From contig OZ024740.1 in NCBI GenBank assembly GCA_964016885.1, forward strand, positions 356,996,001-357,060,000: 64,000 bases of DNA. The letters are read 5' to 3'. Numbering within the stretch: the first letter of the stretch is position 1; each line of letters starts with the position of its first letter. The position numbers and the translations under genes were made by a program. The notes under the pieces are model-generated. The model was not told where the DNA came from and made no database searches. It was given only the letters and a program-made list of their open reading frames with translations. Origin of the DNA: Eledone cirrhosa (taxonomy: Eukaryota). Shown here in pieces: positions 2,369-59,379 of the stretch.

Positions 2369-2443
2369 CGGGTTCAATCGGGGGTAACCACAGTAAGTAA
2401 GGTACTCAATACATAACAGAGTATAAATATTTAATATAGAAAT

Positions 2444-2495
2444 GGCTTCTACAGGACTAGAACTGTTTCTTTGAAAGGAAACCATCAGGAAAGCC
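2444..2495 (-). ncRNA. degenerate type I hammerhead ribozyme motif (A9G)
   Basis: minus strand GGCTTTC-CTGATGG-TTTCCTTTCAAA-GAAA-CAGttctagtcCTG-TA-GAAGCC; inverted sister copy at 2662-2706. Confidence 0.55.
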
Positions 2496-2661
2496 GACTG
2501 TTAATGTGATATGGTGGTATTTATACATTTTCTGTTGGTAGGGGAAGGTGGTGATTGAGATGGGTGGGGGTCATTGGCTGATGGATTTAAAGAATGGGGG
2601 AGTTCTTTGAAAAGCTATATTCAGAGAAAAATACAATACAGTGATACAGAATGATATAAAT

Positions 2662-2706
2662 GCTTTCCTTAAGAGTTCCTTCGAATGAAACAGTCCTGTA
2701 GAATCC
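2662..2706 (+). ncRNA. degenerate type I hammerhead motif (G5U), inverted partner of 2444-2495
   Basis: GCTTTC-CTTAAGA-GTTCcttcGAAT-GAAA-CAGtcCTG-TA-GAATCC. Confidence 0.5.
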
Positions 2707-4255
2707 ATTTCTATATGACATATATATATATATATATATATATATATATATATATATATATATATATATATATTTCTATATTACATATATATATTACATA
2801 TATATATATATATATATGGGATATAATTACGGTATGTGCGCATTTCTTCTAAGTTTAATTTTACTACTAATTGTGTGTGGTTGAAGGTATATTTGGTCGA
2901 AGTCTACATGCTGTCGAAATGTTCGATAAATAATGGAACGGGGCTGCCGCGAAGAGGCTACTGTCGATTGTTTGTCAGAGATTTCCCCATAAGAAAATTT
3001 ATTCTTAAAGCTTGCTAGATTTGATTTTGTATATGGTTAATTATGCTAATTAGAAGAAGAAATAGTATATATTTTAATATCTGATGATTCTAAAGACATG
3101 TGGGTAGGCTGCGCAAATAAACATCTGTACACCAACTATGCATCTCAGACCCTGCCTGAATTGACAATGGTAAAGTAGCACCCACAAATTAGTAATGGAA
3201 AACCACCATCATGTGAACGTGTAATAAGCCCTTTGGGGACAATTATTCAAACACCGGCCAGAGTTACTCCCCTTGCTCTGTGACAATAAGAACGTGTATG
3301 TTTGAACTAAGAATGAACTTTGATGTATGTATCACTTTAAAACCGCTTCTGGGTCCTGTACTGCGATGGTCGCCAACATAGGTTCCGTGGAACCTTGGGG
3401 TTCCGTAAAACAAACTCCGGGTTCCTTAAAAAAATAAATATTTACCATTAATATTTTGGGTTTTCTGAAAAAGGTGCAAAGAAAATGCCAAAAGTGCAAT
3501 GTATAAATGAACGAGTACTATTGTAGTTTACACAGGTTCTCCACTCCAATTCGTGGAAAACTCTACTTTCAGTTTCTCACTTGAATTAGCAGAAAAACAC
3601 TGTTCTGAGATTCGTGAAAATTGAATACTTTCAATTTCACATCAATTCTTGGAAACACATAGTTTTCTGAATTCCGAGAATTTGACTACTACTGATAATA
3701 CACTAATTGAACTTAAAAATTGACCAATCACGAACAAGTAAATGTTGGTCGATAACAGCATAACTTTAAACTGAAAACTTCAGTTCAGCGAGGTCTTTCA
3801 GCCGAGAGACAGGGTCAGTTCGCTGTTCTCACAACGTAAGTTCAGTAGAATGTTTTCAATAGAAAACACGTTTTAATCTGCTGTCCTCACAAAAGCTTTA
3901 AAGTCGCCTAAAGTTTCCTCACAGAGTGAACTCGCTTACTAGTCGTTTTCAACATGCATCCAGTTCTACAGACAATTCTAAATAAGAACACGTTATATTC
4001 TGTTGTACTTTGCACAGAAAATATAACGCCTGTAAAGTTTCGACTACTAACAAAGGTAATTTTGTATTCCATGCATACACTATAAACTTTGCCACACAAT
4101 TATGTATTCATTTGATGACATCTGCATTCACAATTGAGAAATTACTTTATACAATAAATATATATGTCCACAAACATTTGACTAAACTTTATTTGTTCCG
4201 ATCTAATATATGTTTAACGCAGCCTAAAACCTTCTTATATTATATCTAACTTTGA

Positions 4256-4349
4256 AGGTTGACTTTGCCTTTCATCCTTACGGGGTCGATGAAATAAAGT
4301 ACCAGTAATGCACTGGGTAATTGCTGGCCTTGTGCCTAAAGTAGAAACA
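4256..4349 (+). mobile_element. 5'-truncated SINE inserted in the hAT element
   Basis: matches the 3' half of the abundant SINE; 17-bp TSD ATTATATCTAACTTTGA at 4239-4255 and 4350-4366. Confidence 0.88.
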
Positions 4350-4818
4350 ATTATATCTAACTTTGAGTCAAAATAGATAGAAGATATCTGAATTAATTTC
4401 CAATACCATCGTCACATCTTCTACACTATCAGCTGATTTGCATTTTTTGCACCTTTTAGTATGGCAGATATTTAAATATATTTACATTACCAATAATATT
4501 TAATACGACCCTAAAGTAGTATATGCAGGAAGTGCTGGACTCTGAAAAAGATTTCTTCTAGTTGCTTATAAATTTGCACCTTTTTCAGTAACCCCTAATA
4601 TTTTAATATTATTATAAGACTCTAAATAATATGTTTGCCATCCTAAAATGGAGAAATTTCAATTTTTAAAAATTAAATTTTTTTTTAACTAGTTAAGTTT
4701 TTCCAAATATCTAAAATTAAAGTTAATTTAAGTACTTTTTGTAATAAAAAAAATTAATTTCTCTTGTTTATTAATGTCATATTAAAAATGTTAACTGTAG
4801 ACAAATAACCTTGATATA

Positions 4819-57852: not shown

Positions 57853-57882
57853 TATATATATATATATATATATATATATATA

Positions 57883-58134
57883 TATAGTTATGTAATAAAC
57901 AACATAAGATAGTTATTTCATTTACCATTACCAAAGGTTTCACGAAGACAGACGAGCTTGGCACATACGTCTGAACGATAGACGGCAGACGTATGTGCCA
58001 AGCTCGTCTGTCTTCGTGAAACCTTTGGTAAATGAAATAATTATCTTATGTTGTTTATTACATAACTATAAAGCTCTGTAGCCTACATAGAGCATTCTTT
58101 TTTCCTGTACCTTTCCTACGGAAATACTTCAATT
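57883..58134. repeat. fold-back palindrome of a PLE-like terminus (family of 7186-7330)
   Basis: ~88-bp inverted arms around a 12-bp spacer; right arm has stem II-GAAA-CCTTTGG-TA-AATG. Confidence 0.88.
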
Positions 58135-58460
58135 ATATATATATGTATATATATATTTATTTATTTATTTATTTATTTATTAAAATAACAGATTAAAGTT
58201 TAAGCAAAGAATCGCTGCTTTCACATTTATTATTATTATTACTATATATAAACGTAAGTATGTATACGTACATACATATATGTATACAGACGTACAGTAG
58301 TATGTATATATATACATACATGTACACATATATATATGTACGTATGGGTTTACCGAACATTTATTATAATGTTCGGTTTGTTTGTAAACAAACAGCCCGA
58401 ATTAAGCCGTACAGTGTTCGGCAACCATCGTCGCACTTTTGTTCAACACTGACAACGGAA

Positions 58461-58501
58461 CGATGAACTAGTTTCAAGCTTATTAGCTATCGTCAGCATC
58501 G
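58461..58501 (-). ncRNA. minimal type I hammerhead ribozyme
   Basis: CGATG-CTGACGA-tAGCTaataAGCTt-GAAA-CTAG-TT-CATCG. Confidence 0.75.
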
Positions 58502-58889
58502 TATACCTTCCTGTCAGATGATTGAATATTTGAAAGTATATACTTTCCTTATGCATATTAACAGCTGGGCAGCCTAATTTGCATATAGAGTGAATTAGTC
58601 GGCTGGGCGTACCGAAAACGATAAATGGAAAAGAATGAAATGGAATTTCATTTCTCACTCTTAGTACGGCTGATACTTAAACGTAAGTATGTATACGTAC
58701 ATACATATATGTATACAAATGTAAAGTAGTATGTATATATATACATACATGCACACATATATATATGTACGTATGGGTTTACTGAACATTTATTATAATG
58801 TTCGGTTTCTTTGTAAACAAACAGCCCGAATTAAGCCGTACAATGTTCGGAAACCATTGTCGCCCTTTTGTTCAACACTGACAAAGGAA

Positions 58890-58930
58890 CGATCAACTAG
58901 TTTCAAGCTTATTAGCTATCGTCAACATCG
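58890..58930 (-). ncRNA. second-unit hammerhead (C3U, stem I mismatch)
   Basis: CGATG-TTGACGA-tAGCTaataAGCTt-GAAA-CTAG-TT-GATCG. Confidence 0.6.
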
Positions 58931-59379
58931 TATACCTTCCTGTCAGATGATTGAACGTTTGAAAGTATATACTTTCCTTATGCATATTAATTAATACTTT
59001 CCTTATGCATATTAACGGCTAAGCAGCTTAATTTGCATATAGAGTGAGTTAGTCGGTCAGGCGTACCGAAAACGATAACGATACTTAAACGTAAGTATGT
59101 ACACGTATACATACTTACGTTTAAGTATCAGCCGTACTAAGAGTGAGAAATGAAATTCCATGTCATTCTTTTCTATATATATATTATCATCATCATCATC
59201 ATTTCATTTTACGTCCGCTTTTCCCTGCTTGCAAGGGAGGGACGGGAACTGATTTTGGCTTGGTTTCTACAGCTGGATGACCTTCCTAACACCAACCTCA
59301 TTTACAGTGAGCGCTGGGTGCTTTTTTGCCGTGGCACCTGCACGACCACTTTGCAGAGGAATGATAGGGACCCCAGTCC

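What the first reader, a model, noticed from the sequence alone, without database searches (positions are those of the whole stretch)
2435..59162. Hidden layer of more than 12 sequence-diverse hammerhead ribozymes in (TA)n-embedded fold-back elements
Seen: type I hammerhead topology (stem I-CUGANGA-stem II-GAAA-stem III-UH-stem I). Cores are intact at 7186(+), 7797(+), 37116(-), 51274(-), 51943(+), 56201(-) and 58461(-), and mutated at 2444, 2662, 6871, 28144, 51642, 56966 and 58890. The stems are unrelated in sequence between families yet still pair. Stem III is usually a tiny palindrome (TATATA, TGCGCA, TGATCA, CTAG, TGCA), and AATAAA often follows. Known: Penelope-like elements and metazoan retrozymes carry minimal hammerheads that cleave as dimers through palindromic stem III. 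Inference: many independent ribozyme-bearing PLE/retrozyme families colonise TA microsatellites here, roughly one motif per 4-5 kb, and could cleave any transcript crossing the region.
Basis: partly seen in the sequence, partly recalled or inferred. Interest (0 to 1): 0.8.

Follow-up and report, generated by a model that had tools for sequence, protein, structure and literature searches.

The report
Genome packed with retroelement hammerhead ribozymes
The hammerhead-shaped RNA motifs are real, but they are the tail ends of Penelope-like jumping genes and of small non-coding hitch-hikers sitting in TA repeats, at about one intact motif per 8–13 kb in a genome-wide sample, and the two arms of these insertions almost always end at two different fixed points, which likely records two separate priming events.

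Summary
Observation confirmed. A strict type I hammerhead scan finds 6 motifs in the window against 0.03–0.08 in shuffles. All 14 listed sites belong to repeat families whose majority core is intact, and stems covary. The 14 sites form 10 families.

The motifs sit near the 3' ends of 5'-truncated Penelope-like elements (PLEs). Three families, and close relatives of a fourth, lie downstream of Hydra-clade RT/GIY-YIG frames. Four are ORF-less, circularly permuted, retrozyme-like units with the same insertion geometry.

The window is ordinary for this genome: 75 strict motifs in 600 kb sampled, about 2–4×10^5 in all, above the published counts I read. In 101 of 107 head-to-head insertions one arm ends at a short site and the other at the tail site, which favours twin priming over self-priming.

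Cleavage of host transcripts is unsupported: no RNA data, no insertion ends at cleavage sites. The scan noted PLE hammerheads and PLE-style hitch-hikers in other genomes. Known kind, with unusual abundance and a testable mechanism.

The parts
2369..2720 (.). Family A two-armed insertion: left arm (-) ends at the tail site (2369), right arm (+) at the short site (2718) before (TA)n. Hammerheads at C3 2488(-) (A9 and stem II damaged) and 2668(+) (core damaged, 6-nt loop-3 deletion). Autonomous partner not found.
3090..3367 (+). Upstream part of the family B element, separated from its hammerhead by a hAT DNA transposon (about 3368–6843, 8-bp target duplication); start approximate
6844..7130 (+). 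Family B 3' end with U3–A8 hammerhead (6871–6911, U3 at 6875; stem III palindrome hit in this copy); ends at the tail site before (TA)n. Hydra-clade ORF 66–356 bp upstream in 10 of 31 copies.
7146..7325 (+). Family C one-armed copy between TA runs; strict hammerhead 7186–7233 (C3 7193)
7724..8065 (+). Family D copy; hammerhead 7796–7884 (C3 7806, long domain II, stem I with 3-nt bulge); end approximate
8857..8937 (+).
10214..10259 (+). Family N hammerhead-shaped motif with A at core position 4 (C3 10219); followed by a broken Hydra-type reading frame
10330..10791 (+). Broken N-terminal remnant of a Hydra-clade PLE reverse transcriptase (DKT motif); start approximate
28088..28322 (.). Family E palindrome between (TA)27 and (TA)29: hammerhead 28144–28212(+) with C3 changed to U, 5' half at 28259(-). 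Atypical: both arms point inward, unlike most other copies. Hydra ORF 454–1170 bp upstream in 6 of 50 copies.
33878..33950 (+). Second family N motif (C3 33883), after (TA)33
36978..37300 (-). Family F copy; strict hammerhead 37177–37116 (C3 37169), ends at the tail site before (TA)n; start approximate
51152..51811 (.). Family G two-armed insertion of a circularly permuted, ORF-less unit of about 0.3–0.4 kb; damaged hammerheads at C3 51311(-) and 51648(+)
51838..52046 (+). Family H copy; strict hammerhead 51943–52000 (C3 51947); elsewhere a 2,077-bp ORF-less tandem unit
56059..57079 (.). Family I two-armed insertion of a Hydra-clade PLE 3' end: short left arm with 90-bp tail (strict hammerhead, C3 56257-), long right arm without tail (C3 56972+, U16.1 changed); neither arm is contained in the other
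57886..58150 (.). Two-armed remnant related to family C, truncated inside the hammerhead (3' halves only)
58249..59175 (.). Family J retrozyme-like insertion: two 429-bp direct units on the - strand (strict hammerhead C3 58496; damaged one at 58925) plus a short inverted arm ending at the tail site

Best explanation
The motifs are type I hammerhead folds near the 3' ends of Penelope-like retroelements and of ORF-less, circularly permuted hitch-hiker units, which were likely inserted into (TA)n by target-primed reverse transcription. The element's GIY-YIG endonuclease would cut both strands of the TA tract; each free end would prime reverse transcription at its own fixed RNA site (short site S or tail site T, both downstream of the hammerhead); both cDNAs usually stop early and are joined head-to-head. 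Because the hammerhead lies just upstream of both start sites, it survives in most stubs, which explains the density. The fold is under selection in the transposing RNA, most likely as a dimer-dependent, protein-assisted cutter that releases or circularises unit-length RNA; the dispersed stubs are mostly inert, decaying copies. Shown: motifs, covariation, ORF linkage for families B, E and I and for close relatives of F, circular permutation for J, G, K and tandem units for H, TA targeting, the S/T pairing rule. Inferred: twin priming, mobilisation of ORF-less units by PLE proteins, circular RNA, any cleavage.
For: Motifs far exceed controls. Structure-blind covariation: in the E/F/I clan, chosen by core and stem I words only, domain II pairs at positions 1–3 and 5–7 in 14–15 of 15 recurrent variants with several pair types, position 4 is unpaired in 15 of 15, and the stem III 6-mer is self-complementary in 99 of 100 copies. 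Family A, chosen by tail homology, is 92.5% paired against 29–52% for slid partners. ORFs carry the Hydra features listed in PMC8557442 section 11: DKT, CxCx5C, CxxC, CxH, C-terminal GIY-YIG. Of 7 loci chosen by ORF alone, 6 carry the family I hammerhead repeat downstream, one with a 750-aa frame. (TA)5 lies within 300 nt downstream of 89 of 134 motifs, upstream of 40, and downstream of 26% of random positions. 3' ends are bimodal per family. One S arm plus one T arm in 58 of 61 pairs (unpaired arms S 85, T 97), 16 of 17 in family N and 27 of 29 in family M. The S arm reaches further 5' in 29 of 58 pairs, and in 11 the T arm is almost only tail, so the arms are not copies of each other. A purified PLE protein cuts and extends both strands and starts at two sites that bound the tail (PMC11167929). 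J copies run upstream into their own tail (12 of 20 by pattern, 17 of 20 by eye). Tandem arrays of 310, 472 and 592 bp are 99–100% identical and head-to-head; both TA-flanked ends were seen for the 310- and 472-bp arrays.
Against: No RNA evidence at all. No autonomous partner was found for families A, C, D, N. Pfam gave no family for the Hydra-type ORFs, so clade assignment rests on motifs and on unnamed homologues, not on a tree. PMC11167929 found no difference in start site between the two strands in vitro. A staggered resolution of a hairpin intermediate could also give one S and one T arm. Both arms contain the whole core in 27 of 58 pairs, which simple twin priming on one RNA stretch does not explain. 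The window's family E copy points inward. Pair counts include one locus counted twice and some related loci.
Confidence: 0.82

Rival explanations
1. Same elements, but the two-armed structure comes from self-priming: one template folds back on itself and the hairpin intermediate is resolved by a staggered endonuclease cut that leaves the tail on one arm.
For: Proposed in PMC3846280 and, for the tail, in PMC8557442. It predicts one S and one T arm. Arms are nearly always of one family: 135 same-family against 4 different-family junctions.
Against: Tails here are about 40–170 nt, long for a staggered cut. In 11 of 58 pairs the T arm hardly overlaps the S arm, so no hairpin stem remains to be cut at S. 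The tail equals the stretch between two RT start sites in vitro (PMC11167929).
Confidence: 0.2
2. The dispersed motifs form an active layer that cuts host transcripts crossing them.
For: About one intact motif per 8–13 kb; stem III palindromes shared between families could allow mixed dimers in long pre-mRNAs.
Against: Strand-specific. Ten of 11 stem III segments tested have no stable monomer hairpin. Fold-back partners lie on opposite strands. PLE hammerheads cut weakly or need protein (PMC4209133, PMC11167929). Copies decay in core and stems. No host exon was seen in the window (not a full gene search).
Confidence: 0.1
3. The ORF-less tandem units are satellite DNA grown by unequal exchange from PLE stubs, not retrotransposed circles.
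For: The 522-bp array is only 94% identical over at least 19 units; DNA-level expansion could add units after insertion.
Against: The same unit junction recurs at many independent loci on several chromosomes. The 310- and 472-bp arrays are head-to-head with different S and T ends in (TA)n. Monomers fold as circles with z = -2.5 to -6.7.
Confidence: 0.12
4. Chance matches in AT-rich, palindrome-rich DNA.
For: The DNA is AT-rich and full of fold-backs; Rfam finds no hammerhead in the window.
Against: 6 against 0.03–0.08 in the window; 75 against 0–2 shuffled, 3 reversed, and 3 hits over 12 decoy words in 600 kb; covariation.
Confidence: 0.01

Closest known systems
Hammerheads in the pLTRs of metazoan Penelope-like elements (Cervera & de la Peña 2014, PMC4209133; parts 1–2 of 4 read)
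   Same: Type I topology, short palindromic stem III, U3–A8 variant, high sequence diversity, mostly dispersed single motifs, pairs on opposite strands 100–700 bp apart.
   Different: Counts there are about 2,000–9,000 per genome; here about 2–4×10^5 by sampling (different descriptor). Most families here have a 2–5 bp palindromic stem III and often U·U, not G–C, at 10.1–11.1.
Hydra clade of C-terminal EN+ PLEs (Craig et al. 2021, PMC8557442; section 11 and passages read)
   Same: DKT, CxCx5C linker, CxxC and CxH, C-terminal GIY-YIG, hammerhead, (TA)n insertion, inverted 5'-truncated arm, tail at one end.
   Different: Described as short (<3 kb) with few families outside cnidarians; here many families with 3' UTRs up to about 2 kb and tails of 40–170 nt rather than 30–40. 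No tree was built.
Metazoan non-LTR retrozymes (Cervera & de la Peña 2020, PMC7229834; section 15 and passages read)
   Same: ORF-less, GC below 50%, tandem units of a few hundred bases with one type I hammerhead each, strongly self-paired as circles.
   Different: Units here are 310–592 bp (one 2,077 bp) and carry the PLE insertion signature, which that paper proposed but did not show in the parts I read. No circular RNA could be tested, and target duplications cannot be read in (TA)n.
PAc Poseidon element in vitro (Frangieh et al. 2024, PMC11167929; parts 1–2 of 4 read)
   Same: Two RT start sites bounding the tail, AT-rich targets, both strands cut and extended, insertions not ending at the hammerhead cut site.
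   Different: The parts I read do not report that the two strands use different start sites in one event; the genomic pairs here say they do.
L1 twin priming (recalled, no call)
   Same: Two primers from one target give an inverted, microhomology-joined insertion.
   Different: Here both priming sites are fixed, and the arms often overlap by more than 100 nt.

Membership tests
Type I hammerhead ribozyme | Core C3-U4-G5-A6-N7-G8-A9 / G12-A13-A14-A15.1 / U16.1-H17 with three stems | tested here: met
   6 strict window hits; majority core intact in families A–K. Family N fails at position 4.
Type I hammerhead ribozyme | Stems kept by compensatory change | tested here: met
   (selection blind to domains II and III)
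Type I hammerhead ribozyme | Match to an Rfam hammerhead model at gathering score | tested here: not met
   0 in the window and in 140 kb of loci; another family of this genome does pass RF00163
Type I hammerhead ribozyme | Self-cleavage after H17 | not testable with these tools
   no RNA holder listed
EN+ Penelope-like element | RT plus C-terminal GIY-YIG frame upstream of the hammerhead repeat | tested here: met
   families B, E, I and close relatives of F; not found for A, C, D, N
EN+ Penelope-like element | 5' truncation, inverted adjacent arm, optional tail, AT-rich target | tested here: met
Hydra clade | DKT, CxCx5C, CxxC and CxH motifs | tested here: met
   L011, L022, L054, L309
Hydra clade | Placement in an RT tree with reference Hydra elements; RWK motif; lack of CCHH | not tested
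   no named reference sequences held
Non-LTR retrozyme (families J, G, K, H) | ORF-less low-GC tandem or circularly permuted unit with one hammerhead | tested here: met
   H (2,077 bp) and J (429–472 bp) reach or exceed the 150–450 bp range given in PMC7229834
Non-LTR retrozyme (families J, G, K, H) | Accumulates as circular RNA | not testable with these tools
   circular folding only predicted
Non-LTR retrozyme (families J, G, K, H) | Canonical loop 1–loop 2 tertiary contacts; target-site duplication | not tested
   contacts not examined; duplications cannot be read in (TA)n

The most novel reading that the evidence does not exclude
The palindromic stem III is mainly a tether: two hammerheads pair and hold two copies of the element's 3' region in one complex, so that a dimeric PLE protein primes one target strand at site S and the other at site T. 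Retrozyme-like circles hijack the same complex; locus L302 (Hydra arm joined head-to-head to a family J arm) would be a captured mixed event. The outcome is the most hammerhead-dense animal genome among those I read about, including an abundant family with A at core position 4.
Probability: 0.17. Interest if true: 0.8.

Novelty: new member of a known kind. Interest (0 to 1): 0.5.

Why it matters
PLE hammerheads are known, so the motifs alone are not news. Three things add value. (1) The S/T pairing rule turns the open question of how PLE inverted insertions and one-sided tails arise into a direct in vitro test. (2) ORF-less hammerhead units carrying the PLE insertion signature support the proposal that PLE proteins mobilise animal retrozymes. 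(3) About 2–4×10^5 intact-looking motifs in at least 24 sequence clusters, nearly all invisible to Rfam, are a large natural library of hammerhead variants and allow a strong test of whether such motifs are selected against in sense orientation in introns.

Tried and rejected
Rfam found no hammerhead in the window or in 14 loci; its microRNA rows are microsatellite noise. RNA runs: no RNA holder listed; this is no evidence on expression. Contigs of two coded DNA runs were laid on family I: the family is present in both, but depth is no copy number and was not used. Pfam on PLE frames gave one weak RVT_1 row in 5 proteins. Hammerhead cleavage as the source of insertion ends: 3 of 220 5' ends and 2 of 229 3' ends lie within 3 nt of the cut site, about what is expected by chance; family A arms may be too short for that test. 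Mixed-family two-armed insertions: 4 of 139 junctions; two keep TA between the arms (sequential insertions), L302 keeps 5–6 TA-like bases, L115 was not followed to its far end. One search was discarded for families G and I because the references were unsuitable, and redone for I; there 27 'oo' rows of family C (artefacts) and 8 pairs with one arm ending off both sites were left out. AATAAA as a polyadenylation signal: enriched (41 of 134 against 3%), but part of stem I in the largest clan, and insertions end in TA, not poly(A). Lünse et al. 2017 is not held; I know it only from passages in PMC6765202 and PMC7761336. A 2026 retrozyme preprint named in earlier notes was not read. Searches behind 'not in print': hammerhead+Penelope+octopus, hammerhead ribozyme+cephalopod (29), Penelope+twin priming+inverted (60), Penelope+pLTR+inverted+tail+template (68), retrozyme+Penelope+mobilization from 2021 (84), hammerhead+U4A (93); PMC13282606 has 0 occurrences of 'hammerhead' or 'ribozyme'. 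No supplements were read; those of PMC4209133 and PMC8557442 may list mollusc families.
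Full report
1. Observation. All 14 listed sites are present. My strict scanner finds 6 motifs in the window (C3 at 7193+, 8862+, 37169-, 51947+, 56257-, 58496-). Dinucleotide shuffles give 0.03–0.08, the reversed window 0, and 12 decoy core words 0. The site at 7806+ passes a looser scan. 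The site at 51311- has an intact core but damaged stems. Copies fetched from the genome (895–3,371 first-look candidates each, 40 scored) show that every family has an intact majority core, so the 'mutated' sites are decayed copies. Family B has the U3–A8 covariant core already described in PMC4209133 and PMC3088659 (passages). The 14 sites form 10 families; with K (8862+) and N (10219+, 33883+) the window holds 12.

2. The fold is under selection. In the E/F/I clan, picked by core and stem I words alone, domain II pairs at positions 1–3 and 5–7 in 14–15 of 15 recurrent variants, with G–C, A–U, U–A and C–G alternatives. Position 4 is unpaired in all 15. The stem III hexamer is self-complementary in 99 of 100 copies. 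In family A, picked by tail homology (28 of 41 rows kept; rows that looked truncated or unrelated upstream were left out by eye), 92.5% of cells pair against 29–52% for slid partners, with one pair changed on both sides in 6 sequences; these rows are related, so this is weaker evidence. Ten of 11 stem III segments tested form no monomer hairpin, and all 11 form self-duplexes of -2.2 to -12.8 kcal/mol. This is the dimer architecture described for PLE hammerheads (PMC4209133; PMC6765202 passages).

3. What carries them. The motif points toward a TA run: (TA)5 lies within 300 nt downstream in 89 of 134 sampled motifs, upstream in 40, and at 26% of random positions. Longer copies lead upstream into RT/GIY-YIG frames: 10 of 31 family B copies and 6 of 50 family E copies. 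For family I, 6 of 7 loci chosen only by their ORF carry the same repeat downstream, one with a 750-aa frame, an inverted and a partial direct repeat; a first look limited to 1.5 kb had found it in only 1 of 8 because the 3' UTR is long. These frames have DKT, CxCx5C, CxxC and CxH, the Hydra features in PMC8557442 section 11. Pfam does not name them, and I built no tree. L021 is a different PLE with direct hammerhead repeats on both sides of its frames. The window holds a broken Hydra-type RT remnant at about 10330–10791. Other families have no ORF. J runs upstream into its own tail at the same junction in independent loci, as do G (3 other loci) and K (1 locus); H forms a 2,077-bp tandem. The random samples held arrays of 310, 472, 522 and 592 bp, 94–100% identical. 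Five monomers fold as circles with z = -2.5 to -6.7. One PLE fragment was found in 19 J loci. Families A, C, D and N remain without a partner.

4. How they were inserted. Each family has two preferred 3' ends, a short site S and a tail site T about 40–170 nt further on. In head-to-head insertions one arm ends at S and the other at T in 58 of 61 cases (p about 1.6e-14 against 50%; unpaired arms S 85, T 97), in 16 of 17 for family N and 27 of 29 for family M. The S arm reaches further 5' in 29 pairs, the T arm in 21, and 8 are equal; in 11 pairs the T arm is almost only tail. Neither arm is then a copy of the other; the window's family I element is such a case. A purified PLE protein cuts and extends both target strands, starts at two sites that bound the tail, and is predicted to be a dimer (PMC11167929). 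I infer twin priming. The published alternative, self-priming with staggered resolution (PMC3846280 and PMC8557442 passages), also gives one S and one T arm but fits long tails and non-overlapping arms poorly. Both arms hold the full core in 27 of 58 pairs, so two copies of the 3' region, or strand displacement, are needed. The 310- and 472-bp arrays and window family J follow the same S/T pattern, which ties ORF-less units to PLE machinery by inference. Arms are of one family in 135 of 139 junctions. L302 joins a Hydra arm to a J arm, but a few TA-like bases at the joint leave sequential insertion open. Insertion ends do not gather at the cleavage site, in line with PMC11167929, where uncut RNA was the template.

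5. Abundance. Sixty evenly spaced 10-kb stretches gave 75 strict motifs (shuffled 0–2, reversed 3, decoys 3 over 12 words): 1.25 per 10 kb, bootstrap 0.63–2.05, or 3.6×10^5 (1.8–5.9×10^5) in 2.87 Gb. Two arrays gave 29 of the 75; with neighbouring same-type copies counted once the figure is 46, or 2.2×10^5 (1.4–3.1×10^5). An earlier, less even sample gave 59 in 590 kb. The strict scan misses most copies of families A, B, D, G and N. The 134 motifs fall into 24–43 clusters. The window (6 in 64 kb) is therefore ordinary for this genome. Published counts I read: about 2,000 plus 1,300 in Schistosoma mansoni, 4,000 in coelacanth, 9,000 in Xenopus tropicalis (PMC4209133); over 6,000 in Acropora and 126,247 in axolotl (PMC7229834). 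Descriptors differ, so the comparison is rough. The host is probably an octopod cephalopod: the best named match of a window LINE protein is from Argonauta (53%). This is a weak inference. My searches found no report of cephalopod hammerheads.

6. Do they cut host RNA? Not shown, and unlikely as a general effect. The motifs work on one strand, need a partner on the same strand, decay, and in tested PLEs cut weakly or only with protein. No RNA run was available.

7. Verdict. A real feature and a new member of a known kind: PLE and retrozyme-type hammerheads in (TA)n. Earlier notes of this scan report the same kind in other genomes; I tested my claims independently and did not reproduce one note's excess of arm starts at the cut site. 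The added value is the abundance, the PLE signature on ORF-less units, and the S/T rule. Interest 0.5.

Noticed in passing
window 10214-10259, 33878-33950, 28901-28973, 58174-58229: Family N: full hammerhead topology, but A at core position 4 in 30 of 53 copies against 1 with the usual U (most others truncated or damaged there); 25 copies in 1.19 Mb sampled; follows the S/T rule. U4C is described in PMC3088659; my search found no U4A report.
   Followed up: partly
window 11405-11822: Family M: very short two-armed insertions in (TA)n with the S/T rule (27 of 29) but no hammerhead core seen; nearly all copies stop just upstream of a strong hairpin.
   Followed up: partly
L302:4960-7370 (G000 C2): Hydra PLE arm joined head-to-head to a family J arm between two TA runs; possible mixed-template insertion.
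   Followed up: partly
L115:8-1744: A second PLE type (as in L021) joined head-to-head to a family E arm with no TA at the joint; far end not seen.
   Followed up: no
L261:3466-9262; L250:1-10000; L218:4638-7000; L025:1-2431: ORF-less hammerhead tandem arrays of 310, 522, 472 and 592 bp; L261 has 14.4 and 4.3 units head-to-head.
   Followed up: yes
L021:1400-5940: PLE with two frames (415 and 852 aa) between direct hammerhead repeats; its hammerhead recurs almost unchanged in the samples.
   Followed up: partly
L001-L010: Another hammerhead family passes Rfam RF00163 (18 matches among 74 scored) and also sits in TA runs.
   Followed up: no
window 3368-6843: hAT-type DNA transposon with an 8-bp target duplication, inserted into the family B element.
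   Followed up: partly
window 20560-24084; fragments at 13700-14500, 25330-27570, 52600-53040, 60434-62109: Non-LTR retrotransposon with an unbroken 1,174-aa RT frame and ACAT-repeat ends, plus truncated relatives.
   Followed up: partly
window 14705-19154: LTR retrotransposon with gag-, RT/RNase H- and integrase-like frames interrupted by stops; described only.
   Followed up: no
window 44250-47250: GC-rich non-LTR-like reading frames, broken.
   Followed up: no
window 9371-9955, 11041-11234, 29090-29268, 35671-35886, 40369-40528, 42424-43248, 54530-55364: Abundant SINE-like repeat of about 190 bp, tandem at 42498-43248.
   Followed up: no
window 28088-28322 and 57348-57581: Near-perfect palindromes; the first points inward, unlike most other family E copies, and may be a later DNA rearrangement.
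   Followed up: partly
L269:2694-7964: A 1.8-kb inverted repeat that includes family D copies and TA runs surrounds a Hydra fragment; possible read-through into flanking DNA.
   Followed up: no
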